Shown: positions 1 to 5,991, counted from the first letter of the stretch. The stretch is 5,991 nucleotides of DNA from a virus (IMGVR_UViG_2744054978_000003), one strand, 5' to 3'. Made by a program: numbers and translations. Notes: generated from the sequence alone by a model not told the origin.

Positions 1-40
1 TTTTTAAAGTATCGTCACACACCCAAGAATTACACAAAGT

Positions 41-70
41 CGTTCTTCTGCGGCGTCAAAGTGGTATAAA
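41..70 (+). promoter_or_regulatory. Candidate extended -10 promoter on the plus strand upstream of the 149-172 terminator
   Basis: TGgTATAAA at 62-70 (TG-n-TATAAA extended -10) with a weak -35-like CGTTCT/GTTCTT about 17 nt upstream. Could drive a ~95-nt transcript ending at the plus-strand terminator. Confidence 0.25.
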
Positions 71-148
71 AGACAGCCATTCCGCAAGGTGTTTTAACAA
101 ATCAAAAGGGGTTTTAATAACGGGCTTAAAGCTGAAAGCTTTCCGGAC

Positions 149-172
149 CCCCCAGCCTATCTGGGGGTTTTC
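149..172 (+). terminator. Plus-strand intrinsic terminator, convergent with the lom terminator
   Basis: CCCCCAG (149-155), loop CCTAT, CTGGGGG (161-167), followed by TTTT (168-171). Ends a plus-strand transcript coming from the left edge of the window. Confidence 0.55.
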
Positions 173-179
173 TGGTCCC

Positions 180-206
180 AAAAAAGCCCGCCTGAACCGG
201 CGGGCT
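180..206 (-). terminator. Intrinsic terminator downstream of lom
   Basis: Plus-strand AGCCCGCC (185-192), loop TGAACC, GGCGGGCT (199-206), an 8-bp stem. On the minus strand it is followed by a 5-U tract (complement of A-run 180-184). Lies 26 nt downstream of the lom stop codon. Confidence 0.65.
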
Positions 207-232
207 GTCATAACACTGTGTTACCTGGCTAA

Positions 233-832
233 TCAGAATTTATAACCGACACCCACGATGAAACCGTCAGTGCGCCAGTCGCCACTGCCGGAGCCTTCAT
301 AAGCAATATCAATGGCCACGGATTCGGTCGGGTTAAACTGCACGCCAGCTCCCCACGCCAGAGACGTGTTGCTGTGGCGACCGTCATCACTTCCGGTCAG
401 CACATCGTGCGTTTTCCCCTTGTTGTCAGTTACGCGAAGATAATCCCCGGAGAAAGTCGACACACGGCTGTAAGCCACACCCGCCATCGCATACGTGCTG
501 AACCATTCATTCACGCGCACAGACGGCCCCGCCATTACGCTGAACCAGCGGTTACGAACGGAATCTTCATGCCAGCGGGTATCGCTGTAACGGGTAAGCT
601 GGCGATTCTTGTCTCCTGCATAGCTGAATGACGTAACCATTCCCAGCGTGTCCGTAAACTCATAACGGTATTTCACGTTAATCCCGTTCAGATCATCACT
701 GCCGGGAACGTTCGTCGAGGCATGAAGATACCCCGCGCTCAGCGTGGACTGATGTTCAGACGCCCATGCAGGCGCACCGGATACGGCCAGACAAATGGCT
801 GCGGACAAAATTGCTGCACAAACTTTACGCAT
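233..832 (-). CDS. lom: Lom outer-membrane protein (Ail/Lom/PagC/OmpX family 8-stranded beta-barrel)
   Basis: 199-aa minus-strand ORF, ATG at 830-832 (complement), TGA at 233-235. Signal peptide [24 protein letters not shown], then ...[11 protein letters not shown]...[10 protein letters not shown]... and a C-terminal aromatic residue (..VGVGYKF) typical of outer-membrane barrels. Closely matches lambda Lom as I recall it. Located immediately downstream of J as in lambda. AGAGG Shine-Dalgarno-like sequence upstream. Confidence 0.95.
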
Positions 833-856
833 AATTACCTCTCGCTTTTCTGCAAT

Positions 857-880
857 AAAAAAGGCGTCATTCCTGACGCC
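857..880 (-). terminator. Intrinsic terminator-like hairpin between the J stop and the lom start
   Basis: Plus-strand GGCGTCA (863-869), loop TTCC, TGACGCC (874-880), a perfect 7-bp GC-rich stem. On the minus strand the hairpin is followed by a 6-U tract (complement of A-run 857-862). On the plus strand it is followed by CTTTATT, so it may act in both directions. Confidence 0.6.
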
Positions 881-902
881 CTTTATTGGGGTTATAAATA
901 TT

Positions 903-3900
903 TCAACGAATACTGATGCCGGAAGCAGCTTTTTTGGTCACAATCACCGTACAGTCGGTGATATTGCCTGCCCCCTGATTGCCTTTCTGGAAAATCTTAA
1001 ACTCCAGAGTGACGCTACCACCACCACTAGGCATATCAATAACTGCACTGTAACTACCGGGAATGGCCCCTTTAGTTTCTCTGGATGCGATTAATACGCC
1101 GTTTTTGCGAACTTCAAAACCATAACCCGTGTATCGCGTGCCTCCTGGGTTATTTCCGCTCCCCGGATCGTCATACGCTATACCGTTAAAAATAATGGGC
1201 GGAATAATTATCTGGCGGTCAAAGTTATGATCATCGCTGATGGTGACTGTAACCGTACCGTTTGGTGTTTCCGTGTTACCCCACGTACCGACTTTTTTCG
1301 GGAAGGCTTTTGATACAGCTTTAACGAAATCCCCTCTGACCTGGGTCGCCTCCAGCATGCCCTTAATCGTACAGTTCTGGTTAATCGTGACATTGTTGAG
1401 CGTTCCTGAGTTCGCATTCACACTGCCACTGATATCCGCATTTTTAGCGGTCAGCTTTCCGTCTGATGTCAGGGAAAATACCGGAGGACTGCCACCGCTG
1501 GTAATGGTGGGGGCCGTCAGGCGCTTCAGGAACACGTCGTTCATGAATATCTGGTTGCCCTGCGCCACAAACATCGGCGTTTCATTCCCGTTTGCCGGGT
1601 CAATAAACGCGATACGGTTAGCGGCAACCAGAAACTGGCTCAGCTTGCCTTCCTCCGTGTCCTCCATGCTGAGGCCAATACCCGCGACATAATGTTTGCC
1701 GTCTTTGGTCTGCTCAATTTTGACGCCCCACATGGCATTCCACTTATCGTTAGCATCCTTCCACTCTTTCGAAAACTGCTCCAGTTTGCTGGCGTTATCC
1801 TCCGTCAGATCGACTTTTTCCAGCAGCTCCTTGCCGAGATGAGATTCGGTTATCTTGCCTTTGAAAAAATCCAGGTAACCTTCCGCATCATCGCTCGCCC
1901 GACCGACGGCCTCCACGAATGCCGATTTGCCAACGGTGTTCACACTGCGGATATAAAAGTAATAATCATGGCCCGGTTTGATATTGATACTGGCGGCTAT
2001 CCAGTACAGCCCCGTGCCAAGGTAGCGGGCTGTGGTTTCAACCTGCCTGATATCGGCAATCCGCGTTTCCGAGAACCAGAACTCAAACTGTACCGTCGGA
2101 TCATAAACCGCAAGATGCGGCGTGGCAGTTATCTGAAAATAGCCCGGCGTCAGCTCAATCCGCGACGGCGCTGCCGGGGCGGCAATCCGGAACGATACCG
2201 ATGCCGGATCGCCCTGCTGTCCCCACGCATTTACCGCCCGGACCGTCAGCGTGTAACGCCCCAGCGCCAGTTGCCTGAAGCGGTATGTGGTTTCCGTCGT
2301 CCGGGCCGTGCTGACCAGCCGCTCACTGCCGTCATCCGCTGTTACGGTCAGACGGAGCAGGAAGCTCACGCCCTTCACCACCTTCGGCGTGTCCCAGCGC
2401 GCCAGCACCTGATATTCCCCGCTGTCTGCGGTGACTTCGGCGGTCAGGTGCTGCACCGCTGGCGGCGTGACACCATTCACCGTGCCGCTCTGGTCGCCGT
2501 CAAAGTGCGCCCCGTTATCCACGATGGCCTCTTTTTCCGGTACATGCTGCACGGCGGTGATGGCATACGTGCCGTCGTCGTTCTCACGGATACTCACGCA
2601 GCGGAACAGGCGCTGGCGCAGCGTCGGCAGCTTCAGCCCCCACACGCTGTATTCAGCAACGCCGTCAGGAACACGGCTCACTTTCACCTTCACGCCGTCG
2701 GTGACGGACTGAACCTCCACGCTGACCGGATTGCCACTTCCGTCAACCAGGCTTATCAGCGTGGTGCCGGAAGATGGCAGCGTGATTTCACGGTCGAGCG
2801 TCAGCGTCCGGGTCTGGCTGTTCACCGCCAGCACGCGCCCGCCGGTGCTGATACCCGCATAGTCATCATCGCAGATTTCAATGACATCGCCCGGTACATG
2901 GCGAAGCCCTTCTGCGCCCACGCTGAAATCCACTGTCTGCGTTTCCAGCAGTTCTGTTTTAATCAGCCACAGCCCGGCGCGGTGTGCCTGCCCCCGACTG
3001 GTACAGCCAAAGGCATCCATTTTCGTGACGTTACGACCGTAACGGGCAATGGCCTGCGTATCTTCAACCAGCTCTGTCGCCGTCTCCCAGCCGTTATCCG
3101 GGTCAGTCCAGTTCACCTCAACGGCATTATGGCGGTCTTTCAGGGCGCTGAAGCTGTAGCGGAACGGCGCGCCATCATCCGGCATCACCACATTACTGCG
3201 GTTATAGGTCCACACCTTATCCGACGGTCGGTCCTGCACAAACGTCAGCGTCTGCCCGTTCCATACCGGCATACAGCGCATCGCCGAGCAGAAATCACTG
3301 AGCACATCCCACGCCTTGCGCTGTGTGGTCAGCCAGGCATTACAGGTGATGCGCGGCTCCGTGCCACCAAAGCCATCCGGCACCGACTGGTCACAATTCT
3401 GGCCGATGACATACAGCGCCCATTTGTCCACATCCGCCGCACCAAGACGTTTCCCCATGCCGTAGCGCGGATGGGTCAGCATATCCCACAGACACCAGGC
3501 CATGTTGTTGCTGTATGCTGGCTTAAACGTTCCGTCCCAGATACCGCTGTATTGCCGCGTCTGCGGGTTATAGTTCGACGGCACCTGCAGAATGCGCCCG
3601 CGAAGATGATAATTACGGCTCACCTGCTGGCTGCCGAACTGCTCCGAGTCCACCTGCACGCCGACCAGTGCCGTGTTCGGGTAGCACTGTTTCACATCGA
3701 TGATTTCGGTGTATGACGACCAGAGCGTTTTGTTCTGCAGCTGGTCTGTGGTGCTGTCCGGCGTCATCCTGCGCATCCGGATATTAAACGGGCGCGGCGG
3801 CAGGCTACCCACCACCACCGAGGCCAGATACTGCGAGGTGGTTTTGCCCTTAATGGTGATGTCTTTTTCCGTCACCCAGCCACCGTTACGTTGTATCTGA

Positions 3901-4316
3901 ACCAGCAGACGGACTTCCGACGGATTCCTGTCACCCTTTGAGGTGGTTTCCACCAGTGCCTGTACACCGAAGGTAAAGCGCAGACGGTCGATGTTTGCCG
4001 ACGTGATGGTGCGGGTGATCGGCGTGTCATATTTCACTTCCGTACCCAGCACAGTCTCGGAGCCGGAGGATTCAAAACCTTCCGGCGGTGTCTGCTCCTG
4101 CTCACCTGCCCGGAACACCACCGTGACGCCGGAGATGTTGGTATTCCCCTCACTGTCCAGCACCGGCGTACTGTTCAGCAGCACGCTTTTTAATCCATCC
4201 ACCGGACCTTCAATCGGCCCTTCACTGATGGCATCGATCACACTCAGCAGCTGCGTGGACTTCAGGTTGTCCTTCGCTTCGCGCGGGGTATGCCCCTTAC
4301 TGCTACCTTTACCCAT
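903..4316 (-). CDS. J: Tail tip attachment / host specificity protein J (lambda gpJ-like central tail fibre), 1137 aa
   Basis: Uninterrupted 1137-aa minus-strand ORF, ATG at 4314-4316 (complement), TGA at 903-905. N-terminus [45 protein letters not shown] is the lambda J N-terminus as I recall it. Size is close to lambda J (1132 aa) and it sits between I and lom. GGAG/GAGGA Shine-Dalgarno-like sequence directly upstream of the start. Confidence 0.97.
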
Positions 4317-4327
4317 TCCTCACACTC

Positions 4328-4358
4328 CATAAACAACAAAGCCGCCCAAAAGGCGGCT
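4328..4358 (-). terminator. Terminator-like hairpin between the lipoprotein moron and the J start (possible moron 3' boundary)
   Basis: Plus-strand AGCCGCC (4340-4346), loop CAAAA, GGCGGCT (4352-4358). On the minus strand it is followed by UUUGUUGUUU (complement of 4331-4340), an interrupted U-tract, so terminator strength is uncertain. Sits 24 nt downstream of the lipoprotein stop and just upstream of the J ribosome-binding site. Confidence 0.35.
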
Positions 4359-4382
4359 CATGAGTTACGGCAGGATTAACTA

Positions 4383-4721
4383 TTATTTACATGCATTAAC
4401 ACTATCAGCAAAAATTTTTGGCGTTAATGCTGGTACGCGTTCATAAAGAGTAAAACTACTGCCATTTCCTGCTTTTTTGATATCAAGCACAACATCATAC
4501 CCACCCATAGCCTGTGGAACTAAAAGGCTTACCCCATTCTCAATAGGAATGGATGTTATAGGTGTTCCATTACCAGCCCATTGTCTGGATATGCAGCCTG
4601 ACAATTCATCAATATTTTTTAATGAATTACCTTCCATTACAGGCTTGCCGGATTTTACGTAATCCAAAGATTTACATCCTGTTAAGGCAATAATCGTGCA
4701 GAATAAAATCGTTTTGTTCAT
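4383..4721 (-). CDS. Small predicted outer-membrane lipoprotein (moron), 112 aa from ATG; function unknown, candidate superinfection-exclusion / receptor-masking factor
   Basis: Minus-strand ORF with ATG at 4719-4721 (complement) and TAA at 4383-4385. N-terminus MNKTILFCTIIALTGC is a lipoprotein signal peptide with lipobox L-T-G-C; mature protein begins C-K-S (Lys at +2, no Asp retention signal, so outer-membrane sorting is predicted). The region is clearly AT-rich relative to flanking I and J. The ORF track offers an upstream TTG at 4731-4733, but the ATG is the more plausible start. No strong Shine-Dalgarno was seen. Confidence 0.7.
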   Translation of the reverse strand: MNKTILFCTIIALTGCKSLDYVKSGKPVMEGNSLKNIDELSGCISRQWAGNGTPITSIPIENGVSLLVPQAMGGYDVVLDIKKAGNGSSFTLYERVPALTPKIFADSVNACK

Positions 4722-4760
4722 ATAGCTAACCAACAGAATAATTATCAGTGTTCGATATAA

Positions 4761-4788
4761 ATATTAAATCAGTTAGAACATGAGTAAA
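4761..4788 (-). promoter_or_regulatory. Candidate sigma70-type promoter for the lipoprotein moron
   Basis: On the minus strand: TTTACT (complement of 4783-4788), 16-nt spacer, TAATAT (complement of 4761-4766), in the AT-rich gap between the I stop and the lipoprotein start. Hexamers were picked by eye in AT-rich DNA, where chance matches are frequent. Confidence 0.3.
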
Positions 4789-4793
4789 TAATA

Positions 4794-5435
4794 TTACCGC
4801 CCAATTACCACAACCTGACCACCATCCCCTTCATCTGCCGTGCTGATCTCCTGAGATGCCACACGTGACCCCACGCGCATTTCACCGTACAGAACAGGCA
4901 GGACATTGCCTTGGGCAACCATGTTATCCAATGAGGAAAAATAGGTATTTTGCTTACCGTTATCAGTGGCTGACACTTTAGGCGTTTTGGCTTTCGGTGC
5001 CAGCATCTGCGCAACACCGCCTAAAACCATACCTGCCCCAAGAGAGAACATGAGATTACTTGCAACAATACTAAGCCCCGGCATCCAGATTGCCGTAGCA
5101 ATTAGCGCCGCACCCAGCACTGCCTGAAAAATACCGCCACTTTTGGCACCCGCCAGACGCGGTACGATGTGGATCACGGCACCATTTGCCAGCGGCTCAT
5201 TAAGACGGGCAGATAATTCGTTTTCGCCTGCATCACGCCCGGAAATGCGCACCTGATACCAGCCCTCATTCAGTTTCTGGCGAAACGCCGGAAGCTGCGT
5301 GGCCAGCGCCCGGATGGCTTCAGCCCCCGTTTTCACACGAAGGTCGATGCGGCGACCAAATCGTTGTAAATCCCCGTAAAGGCAGATGCGTGCCATGCCC
5401 GGTGACGCCAGAGGGAGTGTGTGCGTCGCTGCCAT
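4794..5435 (-). CDS. I: Tail assembly protein I (lambda gpI-like)
   Basis: 213-aa minus-strand ORF, ATG at 5433-5435 (complement) preceded by a GAGAGAGG Shine-Dalgarno-like run, TAA at 4794-4796. N-terminus MAATHTLPLASPGMARICLYGDLQRFGRR and C-terminus ...GNVLPVLYGEMRVGSRV...GGQVVVIGR match what I recall of lambda gpI. The start lies 103 nt inside the 3' end of K in another frame, the same overlap arrangement as lambda K/I. Confidence 0.9.
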   Translation of the reverse strand: MAATHTLPLASPGMARICLYGDLQRFGRRIDLRVKTGAEAIRALATQLPAFRQKLNEGWYQVRISGRDAGENELSARLNEPLANGAVIHIVPRLAGAKSGGIFQAVLGAALIATAIWMPGLSIVASNLMFSLGAGMVLGGVAQMLAPKAKTPKVSATDNGKQNTYFSSLDNMVAQGNVLPVLYGEMRVGSRVASQEISTADEGDGGQVVVIGR

Positions 5436-5991
5436 TTGTCGGTATACCTCTCTCGTTTGCTCAGTTGTTCAGGAATATGGTGCAGCAGCTCGCCGTCACC
5501 ACAGTAAATGGCGGCATGATTCGGCACCGATGAACCAAAACAGCACAGCAGCACATCGCCCGGCTGCGCCGCTGACAACGGCACCTGATACAGCCCTGTG
5601 GCCTCCAGATTATCCAAATAGAGATTCTGACCGTTACGCCACCAGTCATCCTCGCGATGAAAATCCGGCATCTCAATCCCCGCCAGATGGTAAGCATCCC
5701 GGAACAGCGTGTAACAGTCCGTCACCCCGTGCTCAAAGCGCCGCCCGGTAAGATGTGGCACACAGCGGAACTTGTAAATCGCCCCCCGGCAGACCAGCCA
5801 CCACGGCAAATCACTCTGCACCTGCAGCCGCCGATCGGCCTCACTCAGCCAGGGCAGACCACCGGGGTGACTGTGGACCAGCGCCACAATCTCACCCTGC
5901 ATTTCTGCCTGCAGCCAGTCCTCCGGCGACATCCGGAAATACTCTTCCGGCTCACCGGAGATATTCACGCAGGGAAAATATCTTTCCCCCT
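5333..5991 (-). CDS. K: Tail tip assembly protein K (lambda gpK-like), 5'-truncated by the window edge; MPN/JAMM domain followed by an NlpC/P60-like domain
   Basis: Minus-strand ORF ends at TGA 5333-5335. The ORF track starts it at GTG 5966-5968, but the frame stays open to 5989 (G-E-R-Y-F-P-C upstream), so the true start is probably outside the window. Contains an exact JAMM metalloprotease motif H-x-H-x7-S-x2-D (HSHPGGLPWLSEAD) and a downstream Cys/His segment (GVTDCYTLF ... NHAAIYCGDGELLHH) typical of NlpC/P60. Sits upstream of I and J as in lambda. Confidence 0.9.
   Translation of the reverse strand, partial: GERYFPCVNISGEPEEYFRMSPEDWLQAEMQGEIVALVHSHPGGLPWLSEADRRLQVQSDLPWWLVCRGAIYKFRCVPHLTGRRFEHGVTDCYTLFRDAYHLAGIEMPDFHREDDWWRNGQNLYLDNLEATGLYQVPLSAAQPGDVLLCCFGSSVPNHAAIYCGDGELLHHIPEQLSKRERYTDKWQRRTHSLWRHRAWHASAFTGIYNDLVAASTFV

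What the first reader, a model, noticed from the sequence alone, without database searches (positions are those of the whole stretch)
903..1400. Compositionally distinct 3' end of J suggests a swapped receptor-binding domain
Most of J is GC-rich and carries the lambda-like N-terminus, but the last ~500 nt of the gene (C-terminal ~150 aa, roughly from ...[20 protein letters not shown] to the end ...[14 protein letters not shown]) look clearly more AT-rich by eye. In lambda the C-terminal portion of J is the LamB-binding host-range determinant, and lambdoid J proteins are known to be mosaic there. A composition break at this point suggests a horizontally exchanged receptor-binding domain, possibly for a receptor other than LamB. 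J is also 1137 aa versus 1132 in lambda. I cannot confirm from memory whether this C-terminal sequence is identical to lambda's.
Basis: partly seen in the sequence, partly recalled or inferred. Interest (0 to 1): 0.6.

Follow-up and report, generated by a model that had tools for sequence, protein, structure and literature searches.

The report
Phage 434-type receptor domain on J
The AT-richer end of this prophage tail-tip gene J is real, and it is the long-known phage 434 ("h434") receptor-binding domain, which uses the porin OmpC instead of lambda's LamB and is common in E. coli prophages, so the finding is correct but ordinary.

Summary
The last ~494 nt of J (window 903-1396, minus strand) have GC 0.474 against 0.580 for the rest of the gene. 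GC3 has a change-point at codon 993 (0.70 to 0.44; 0 of 300 permutations reach it). Lambda J has no such break.

Against lambda, J is about 96-97% identical in DNA up to J nt ~2920, then falls to 42-57% (39% amino-acid identity, synonymous sites saturated). Against phage 434 the same stretch is 98.4% identical in DNA and 97.6% in protein, and both J proteins are 1137 aa. Pfam, PDB sequence search and an AlphaFold model all place it in the same Ig-like gpJ C-terminal receptor-binding family as lambda's.

Phage 434 and lambda h434 hybrids use OmpC, so OmpC is the inferred receptor. This was not tested here.

This domain type occurs in 2113 of 5426 complete E. coli genomes. Lambda's own type occurs in 98, and the listed top hits for it are laboratory strains, so lambda carries the rare allele.

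Modular exchange of this "specificity region" is already published and already used for engineering. A small uncharacterised lipoprotein gene inserted between I and J is noted in passing.

The parts
903..4316 (-). Gene J: tail tip attachment protein / central tail fibre, 1137 aa
   Evidence: ORF. NCBIfam NF049904 lambda_TipJ scores 2280 bits against a cutoff of 1950. Six Pfam gpJ domains occur in lambda order. 88% amino-acid identity to lambda J overall.
1397..4316 (-). Lambda-like J backbone (hub domains, two FNIII/Ig domains, helical shaft, beta-prism fibre), aa 1 to about 973
   Evidence: About 96-97% DNA identity to lambda and to 434 in 100-nt bins. dS 0.136 to lambda and 0.128 to 434; dN 0.014 and 0.009. 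GC 0.58.
1408..1463 (-). Conserved 56-nt stretch (J nt 2854-2909) identical in window, lambda and 434, directly upstream of the break. Likely site of homologous crossover.
   Evidence: Mismatch positions and the alignment. [quoted passage not shown]
903..1396 (-). Exchanged specificity region: 434-type (h434) receptor-binding domain, aa ~974-1137. GC 0.474.
   Evidence: 42-68% DNA and 39% amino-acid identity to lambda. 98.4% DNA and 97.6% amino-acid identity to phage 434. GC3 change-point at codon 993.
909..1316 (-). Ig-like C-terminal receptor-binding domain proper (Pfam PF12421 Ig_GpJ_C), aa 1001-1136
   Evidence: Pfam E 6.1e-25. PDB sequence hits to lambda gpJ (8xcj/8xck, E 2e-32) and A8 gpJ (9wca, E 3e-41). 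AlphaFold2 model has pLDDT 80 and is all-beta. Foldseek top hits are 8xck, 9wcb, 8xcj and 9wca at E about 1e-16 to 1e-15.
833..902 (-). J-lom spacer with a GC-rich hairpin (863-880) followed by a T-run on the minus strand
   Evidence: Hairpin found. The equivalent site is annotated as a terminator in phage 434. The spacer is unlike lambda's but like that of 434 and CB9615.
233..832 (-). lom (Ail/Lom outer-membrane beta-barrel), 199 aa, 434-type. Adjacent variable module, separable from the receptor domain.
   Evidence: Pfam PF06316 E 1.7e-121. Codons 1-170 have dS 1.68 to lambda lom, and the last 29 codons have dS 0.37. Identity to lambda recovers at window ~313. The same lom type follows a different receptor-domain type in CB9615.

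Best explanation
Window 903-1396 encodes the receptor-binding ('specificity') module of the lambda-family tail tip protein J, in the allelic form first known from phage 434 (h434).

Shown here: the J backbone is lambda-like. From about residue 974 onward the gene carries a divergent homologue of lambda's Ig-like C-terminal domain, nearly identical to that of phage 434. It has its own lower GC and GC3, and its own loop lengths.

Inferred history: this module is exchanged among lambdoid prophages by homologous recombination. One crossover lies in the conserved sequence just upstream (J nt ~2854-2920). The other lies at or beyond the J stop codon.

Inferred mechanism, by analogy to the solved lambda and A8 gpJ structures: three copies of the domain form the distal tip of the central fibre. 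Their bottom loops insert into a trimeric porin, and binding triggers tail opening and DNA ejection.

Inferred receptor: OmpC rather than LamB, because phage 434 and lambda h434 hybrids use OmpC. This was not tested here.
For: 1. Abrupt loss of identity to lambda within about 30 nt at J nt ~2921 (97% falling to 68% and then 42-57%), while identity to 434 stays at 95-100%.
2. Synonymous sites are saturated against lambda in the domain (pS 0.77) but dS is 0.136 in the backbone. Against 434 the domain (dS 0.036) is closer than the backbone (dS 0.128), so the two parts have different histories.
3. GC3 change-point at codon 993, reached by 0 of 300 permutations and absent from lambda J.
4. A CB9615 prophage is 98-100% identical up to J nt ~2900 and 92-100% identical again from shortly after the J stop codon through lom. 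It differs only across J nt ~2950-3414, where it carries a third domain type. The domain alone is therefore the exchangeable unit.
5. Same family and fold as lambda's domain: Pfam PF12421, PDB sequence hits, Foldseek.
6. Homologues fall mainly into two groups, those at 90% identity or more and those at about 43-51%, with few full-coverage intermediates. This indicates discrete allelic types.
7. Literature. Replacing lambda J with 434's switches the receptor to OmpC (PMC3509688, PMC11101478). Residues 960-1132 form an independently evolving module with four indel hot spots (PMC6646904). Natural C-terminal portions fused at lambda aa 964 retarget lambda particles to OmpC (PMC11338833).
8. The four indels seen here (+6, +18, +3, -12 nt, net +5 aa) lie at or near those hot spots.
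Against: - No experiment links this exact sequence to OmpC. It differs from 434 at four residues: window N1019, I1108, Q1110 and G1115 against 434's D, V, H and R.
- Positions 1019 and 1108-1115 align with the lambda loops around residues 1012 and 1107 that control receptor choice (PMC6646904). In phage 21 a single J mutation adds a receptor (PMC11336670).
- OmpC is polymorphic, and other gpJ chimeras discriminate between OmpC alleles (PMC11338833). The host range may therefore differ from 434's.
- The direction and date of the exchange cannot be read from one window.
- The window also departs from lambda and 434 after the lom terminator, where they carry stf. Whether this prophage still makes infectious particles is unknown.
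Confidence: 0.85

Rival explanations
1. The C-terminal domain diverged in place from a lambda-like ancestor under strong diversifying selection for host range, with no recombination.
For: The specificity region is a documented hot spot of amino-acid and indel variation under diversifying selection (PMC6646904). dN is high here (0.55 against lambda).
Against: Synonymous sites are saturated in the domain but not next to it (pS 0.77 against dS 0.136). The transition occupies about 30 nt. Against lambda, the non-coding spacer downstream is also replaced. The domain is closer to 434 than the backbone is. The same flanks carry a third domain type in CB9615.
Confidence: 0.03
2. The domain is 434-like in sequence but binds a different receptor, or only particular OmpC alleles, because of its four substitutions in or next to loop regions.
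For: Four differences from 434, at 1019, 1108, 1110 and 1115, lie opposite lambda's receptor-determining residues 1012 and 1107 (PMC6646904). Single J mutations change receptor use in phage 21 (PMC11336670). The gpJ chimeras A8 and 1A2 differ in which OmpC alleles they accept (PMC11338833).
Against: 97.6% identity to 434 across the domain, with identical indel structure. The exact variant is widespread (624-member cluster) and is 99.8% identical in DNA to several Stx phages. A shift in allele preference is plausible, but a change to a different protein is unlikely.
Confidence: 0.1
3. The composition shift is a by-product of amino-acid content or chance and says nothing about origin.
For: GC1 also drops (0.587 to 0.476), reflecting a domain rich in Asn, Lys, Ile, Thr and Gly. 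A broader GC decline starting at J nt ~2175 is also the best change-point in lambda.
Against: GC3 drops from 0.70 to 0.44-0.49, reached by 0 of 300 permutations. Lambda's homologous domain keeps GC3 at 0.61. The composition break coincides with the identity break.
Confidence: 0.02

Closest known systems
Phage 434 central tail fibre J (UMO75286.1, OL657226), the classical h434 host-range allele, also carried by lambda h434 imm21 (OM418627)
   Same: Same length (1137 aa). 98.4% DNA and 97.6% amino-acid identity over the last ~164 residues. Same four indels relative to lambda. Same 434-type lom downstream. Its receptor is OmpC (PMC3509688, PMC11101478).
   Different: Four substitutions in the domain: window N1019, I1108, Q1110, G1115 against 434's D, V, H, R. 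The backbone differs by dS 0.128 and 18 amino acids. The window also has an extra lipoprotein gene between I and J, and departs from 434 after the lom terminator, where 434 carries stf.
Lambda gpJ receptor-binding domain (PDB 8XCJ, 8XCK), which binds LamB
   Same: Same Pfam family (PF12421) and the same Ig-like beta fold (Foldseek E 5e-16, TM 0.67-0.70). Same position at the tip of an otherwise ~97% identical J.
   Different: Only 39% amino-acid identity, with four loop indels (net +5 aa). GC 0.474 against 0.543. Different receptor (LamB).
A8 gpJ receptor-binding domain (PDB 9WCA; 9WCB in complex with OmpC of EDL933); natural counterpart in the E. coli O55:H7 CB9615 prophage
   Same: A third allelic type of the same domain on the same J backbone and flanks. 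GC is also 0.474. It binds OmpC, in a solved complex (PMC11338833).
   Different: About 48% amino-acid identity to the window's domain, with different loop lengths. J is 1132 aa in CB9615.
Long-tailed Stx-converting and other lambdoid phages (Stx2a_WGPS6, Stx2_112808, ASU11, mEp460_ev081, phage 2851)
   Same: 99.0-99.8% DNA identity over window 903-1400, annotated as host specificity protein J.
   Different: None of the phage records holds the inserted lipoprotein gene between I and J. I found no receptor assays for these particular phages.

Membership tests
Lambda TipJ (phage attachment tail tip protein J, NCBIfam NF049904) | Full-length match above the curated cutoff | tested here: met
   2280 bits against a cutoff of 1950, covering residues 1-1137.
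Lambda TipJ | Domain order: FNIII-A, Phage-tail_3, two Ig domains, tail-tip fibre, C-terminal receptor-binding domain | tested here: met
   Pfam PF24801, PF13550, PF24421, PF24489, PF09327 and PF12421, in that order.
Lambda TipJ | Genomic position in the tail module: K, I, J, lom | tested here: met
   ORFs, compared with lambda and 434 annotation. One extra ORF sits between I and J.
gpJ C-terminal receptor-binding domain (Pfam PF12421 Ig_GpJ_C) | Profile match above the gathering score | tested here: met
   88.3 bits against a cutoff of 26.2, residues 1001-1136.
gpJ C-terminal receptor-binding domain | Ig-like beta-sandwich fold as in the solved gpJ structures | tested here: met
   AlphaFold2 model with pLDDT 80. 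Foldseek hits to 8xck, 9wcb, 8xcj and 9wca at E 5e-16 to 3e-15, TM 0.67-0.70. Only a monomer was modelled; the trimer was not.
h434-type allele of the specificity region | Near-identity to phage 434 J residues ~974-1137, including loop lengths | tested here: met
   97.6% amino-acid and 98.4% DNA identity, with no indels. Both proteins are 1137 aa.
h434-type allele of the specificity region | Adsorption and infection depend on OmpC, not LamB | not testable with these tools
   Established for 434 and lambda h434 in the literature (PMC3509688, PMC11101478). Here it is inferred from sequence identity only.
Lambda-type (LamB-binding) specificity region | Close sequence identity to lambda J 974-1132 | tested here: not met
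   39% amino-acid identity, four indels, and no megablast match to lambda in this stretch.
A8-type (OmpC-binding) specificity region, PDB 9WCA/9WCB | Close sequence identity to A8 gpJ | tested here: not met
   About 48% identity.

The most novel reading that the evidence does not exclude
The four substitutions relative to phage 434 (N1019, I1108, Q1110, G1115) lie in or beside the loops that align with lambda's receptor-determining residues 1012 and 1107. They may define a natural sub-variant of the h434 domain tuned to a different set of OmpC alleles, or able to use an additional porin. If so, the 90-100% identity cloud of this domain, found in 39% of complete E. coli genomes, would be an allelic series tracking OmpC polymorphism.
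Probability: 0.15. Interest if true: 0.35.

Novelty: already known. Interest (0 to 1): 0.12.

Why it matters
It allows a receptor (OmpC, not LamB) to be predicted for this prophage from sequence alone. It also gives a clean example of the modular exchange of the gpJ specificity region, which is already documented and already used to retarget lambda-derived delivery particles.

The only mildly useful new point is quantitative. In 5426 complete E. coli genomes the 434-type domain is about 20 times more frequent than lambda's LamB-binding type. Lambda is therefore the atypical reference.

Tried and rejected
- Locus L002 (phage 434) was not visible to the Python sandbox. I pasted its J sequence instead.
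- I looked for the sequence of the OmpC-targeting chimera '1A2' in the supplements of PMC11338833, to see whether it is the 434 type. Only delivery data are held as text, with no protein sequence.
- A literature search for receptor assays on phages carrying the near-identical domain (mEp460, mEp332, PhiR42) returned nothing.
- I considered whether the receptor domain and lom travel as one cassette, because against lambda the divergent block spans both. I rejected this as a rule: the CB9615 prophage pairs the same lom type with a different domain type.
- I considered whether the inserted lipoprotein gene is tied to the 434-type domain, as a possible receptor-masking partner. That is not supported: in CB9615 the same gene precedes an A8-type J, and a 50%-identical homologue in an Enterobacter prophage sits between the T chaperone and tape-measure genes.
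- The lipoprotein has no Pfam or NCBIfam hit. Its only PHROG hit is phrog_914, of unknown function. Its fold search gave only weak matches (best: Flpp3, E 9e-3, TM 0.51).
- The other ORFs overlapping 903-1400 (795-1094 +, 1240-1692 +, 1208-1417 -) lie in alternative frames of J. I treated them as spurious.

Full report
**Layout of the window**

All the genes discussed lie on the minus strand, in lambda order.
- K: 5333-5968 as listed. It probably starts beyond the window end.
- I: 4794-5435.
- An extra small ORF: 4383-4733.
- J: 903-4316, 1137 aa.
- lom: 233-832, 199 aa.

J is a full member of the lambda TipJ family. NCBIfam NF049904 scores 2280 bits against a cutoff of 1950. Six Pfam gpJ domains occur in the lambda order, ending with PF12421 'Tip attachment protein J, C-terminal receptor binding domain' at residues 1001-1136.

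Yes. GC by segment of J is as follows.

| J nt | Window | GC here | GC in lambda |
|---|---|---|---|
| 1-2100 | 2217-4316 | 0.597 | 0.59 |
| 2101-2920 | 1397-2216 | 0.539 | 0.54 |
| 2921-3414 | 903-1396 | 0.474 | 0.543 |

- By codon position, the last segment against the rest is GC1 0.476 against 0.587, GC2 0.457 against 0.453, and GC3 0.488 against 0.702.
- A single change-point fitted to GC3 falls at codon 993 (about window 1338). GC3 is 0.70 before it and 0.44 after it, with LLR 18.6, reached by 0 of 300 permutations.
- The same analysis on lambda J gives only a weak change-point elsewhere (codon 710, 24 of 300).
- On all nucleotides the best single change-point is at J nt 2175 in the window, in lambda and in 434 alike. 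It is weaker in lambda (LLR 6.0 against 15.7 here). That milder decline is a property of the J backbone. Only the second step is specific to this allele.

**What is it?**

*Comparison with lambda J.* BLASTP gives 88% identity overall, and almost all differences fall after residue ~974. In 100-nt bins, DNA identity to lambda is 88-99% (mostly 95-99%) up to J nt ~2900, then 68, 49, 42, 44, 46 and 57%.

*Comparison with phage 434 J.* This J is also 1137 aa. Identity is 91-100% in every bin and 95-100% over the last 500 nt. The domain differs from 434 at only four residues: window N1019, I1108, Q1110 and G1115 against 434's D, V, H and R.

*Database matches.* Megablast of window 903-1400 against 50,697 phage records finds 74 records, all at 90% identity or more. 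None of the 30 records listed is lambda, and the ≥90% identity floor excludes it. Among the records are:
- phage 434 and lambda h434 imm21, at 98.2-98.4%;
- several Stx-converting phages, at 99.0-99.8%.

An identical protein fragment already exists in a 624-member cluster labelled E. coli host specificity protein.

*Substitution rates* (Nei-Gojobori).

| Comparison | Backbone dS | Domain |
|---|---|---|
| Against lambda | 0.136 | pS 0.77 (saturated), dN 0.55 |
| Against 434 | 0.128 | dS 0.036 |

The domain and the backbone therefore have different histories. The domain is more recently shared with 434 than the rest of J is. In-place diversifying selection cannot saturate synonymous sites across a boundary of about 30 nt, so recombination is the explanation.

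*The upstream junction.* A 56-nt run (J nt 2854-2909, window 1408-1463) is identical in the window, lambda and 434. It includes the codon for lambda aa 964. [quoted passage not shown]

**Extent of the module**

Against lambda, the divergence does not stop at the J stop codon. It continues through the J-lom spacer and the first ~170 codons of lom (dS 1.68). Identity recovers at about window 313.

The comparison with a prophage of E. coli O55:H7 CB9615 separates the two parts.
- That prophage is 98-100% identical up to J nt ~2900.
- It differs only across J nt ~2950-3414, where it carries a third domain type.
- It is again 92-100% identical from shortly after the J stop codon through lom.

So the receptor domain alone is an exchangeable unit, and lom is a separate, adjacent variable module.

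**Same kind of domain, different allele**

- The segment matches Pfam PF12421 at E 6e-25.
- It matches the PDB sequences of lambda gpJ (8xcj/8xck, E 2e-32) and 'A8 gpJ 713' (9wca/9wcb, E 3e-41).
- An AlphaFold2 model built on a 20-sequence alignment (pLDDT 80, pTM 0.71, all-beta) hits 8xck, 9wcb, 8xcj and 9wca first by Foldseek, at E 5e-16 to 3e-15 and TM 0.67-0.70. The next hits are about eleven orders of magnitude weaker.
- The framework strands are conserved across types and the loops vary.
- Homologues fall mainly into a group at 90% identity or more and a group at about 43-51%. This fits discrete allelic types.
- The +5 aa relative to lambda is the net of four indels (+6, +18, +3, -12 nt). 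They lie at or near the four indel hot spots (lambda residues 1012, 1048/49, 1077/78, 1107) described for natural J homologues (PMC6646904). My mapping of positions is approximate, because gap placement is ambiguous.

**Mechanism**

*What the literature shows.*
- The C-terminal part of gpJ determines host specificity.
- Replacing lambda J with 434's switches the receptor from LamB to OmpC, the receptor of 434 (PMC3509688; PMC11101478).
- In the solved lambda structures the trimeric domain inserts four bottom loops into LamB. Binding spreads the domain bases and twists the fibre, and this propagates upward to open the tail tip (PMC11101478).
- A third natural domain type (A8) has been solved in complex with OmpC (PDB 9wcb).
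- Natural C-terminal portions fused at lambda aa 964 retarget lambda particles to OmpC, with allele-dependent efficiency (PMC11338833).

*What I infer.* By 97.6% identity to 434, this domain most likely binds OmpC and works in the same way. That step is inferred, not shown.

*The caveat.* Window residue 1019 and residues 1108-1115 align with the lambda loops around residues 1012 and 1107 that control receptor choice (PMC6646904). Single J mutations are known to add receptors in phage 21 (PMC11336670). A shifted preference among OmpC alleles therefore cannot be excluded.

**How common is it?**

| Domain type | Complete E. coli genomes with a match (of 5426) | Notes |
|---|---|---|
| 434-type 3' end | 2113 | Up to 7 copies per genome |
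| Lambda-type 3' end | 98 | All at 99% identity or more; the five hits listed are laboratory strains such as DE3 lysogens |

The CB9615 (A8-type) domain also has GC 0.474. The low-GC state is thus the commoner one among these alleles, and lambda's higher-GC LamB-binding domain is the unusual one. 'Swapped' is true only with lambda as the reference.

**Comparison with what is known, and novelty**

The allele is the h434 host-range determinant, used in lambda genetics since the 1960s and sequenced in 434 and in lambda h434 imm21 (PMC9119081). Three things have already been published:
- the modular, recombining nature of residues 960-1132, from 1207 natural homologues (PMC6646904);
- the 35-40% identity among OmpC- and LamB-binding domains of this family (PMC12502783);
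- engineering use of the same junction (PMC11338833).

Nothing about the feature at 903-1400 departs from that picture. The result is a confirmed but ordinary feature.

**Seen in passing**

*The extra ORF between I and J.*
- Between I and J, lambda and 434 have a 60-bp spacer. The window instead has a low-GC (30-40%) ORF.
- With the ATG start it spans 4383-4721 and encodes 112 aa. It has a lipoprotein-type signal ending in LTGC, and a terminator-like hairpin follows it at 4339-4359.
- It has no Pfam or NCBIfam match. Its only PHROG match is phrog_914, of unknown function.
- It has no megablast match in the phage collection, but it occurs in 337 of 5426 complete E. coli genomes, annotated as hypothetical.
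- Its AlphaFold model is confident (pLDDT 84). The best PDB fold match is weak: the Francisella lipoprotein Flpp3, E 9e-3, TM 0.51.
- A 50%-identical homologue in an Enterobacter prophage sits at a different place in the tail operon, between the T chaperone and tape-measure genes. In CB9615 the same gene precedes an A8-type J.
- It behaves like a moron that is not tied to one receptor-domain type. Its function is unknown.

*The window end.* Window 1-178, downstream of the lom terminator, departs from lambda and 434, which carry the side-tail-fibre gene there. It partly matches an unannotated sequence present at up to 35 places per E. coli genome.

Noticed in passing
window 4383-4733 (-); ATG-start version 4383-4721: An extra low-GC (30-40%) gene for a 112-116 aa predicted lipoprotein (signal ending LTGC) sits between I and J, where lambda and 434 have only a 60-bp spacer. 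It has no Pfam or NCBIfam hit, and its only PHROG hit is phrog_914 (unknown function). It is absent from 50,697 phage records by megablast but present in 337 of 5426 complete E. coli genomes as 'hypothetical protein'. The AlphaFold model is confident (pLDDT 84), and the best fold match is weak (Flpp3, E 9e-3). A 50%-identical homologue in an Enterobacter prophage sits between the T chaperone and tape-measure genes. It looks like a moron and is not tied to the 434-type domain.
   Followed up: partly
window 233-832 (-), divergent part ~313-832: lom is the 199-aa 434 type. It is strongly diverged from lambda's 206-aa lom over the first ~170 codons (dS 1.68), while its last ~29 codons and the downstream terminator are lambda-like. 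It is a second mosaic module directly next to the J receptor domain, but separable from it.
   Followed up: yes
window 1-178: Downstream of the lom terminator the sequence departs from both lambda and 434, which have the side-tail-fibre gene (stf / orf-401) there. Window ~76-200 matches an unannotated sequence at 93.6% identity, found at up to 35 places per E. coli genome and also on plasmids. This may be the end of a repeated or mobile element, and stf may be missing or displaced in this prophage.
   Followed up: partly
window 185-206 (-), 863-880, 4339-4359 (-): Three terminator-like hairpins: after lom, between J and lom (the equivalent sites are annotated as terminators in phage 434), and after the inserted lipoprotein gene just upstream of J.
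   Followed up: no
window 1518-1613 (-), J residues 902-933: The central-fibre segment that a 2026 paper identifies as the trigger peptide for the prophage abortive-infection nuclease HepS, including F924, is identical to lambda's here. This J would be expected to be a HepS trigger (PMC13043305).
   Followed up: no
window 1397-4316 (-), J backbone: The backbone is itself finely mosaic. Local patches drop to 88-93% identity against lambda (for example J nt ~900-1000 and ~2200-2300) or against 434 (J nt ~1600-1700, 91%). Overall the backbone is no closer to 434 (dS 0.128) than to lambda (dS 0.136).
   Followed up: partly
whole window: No complete E. coli RefSeq genome or phage record holds the window end to end. 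The best match is 97.7% identity over window 179-5991 (E. coli 23CRST030, SCEC020023, EC-129). The source is therefore a related prophage that is not in those collections.
   Followed up: partly
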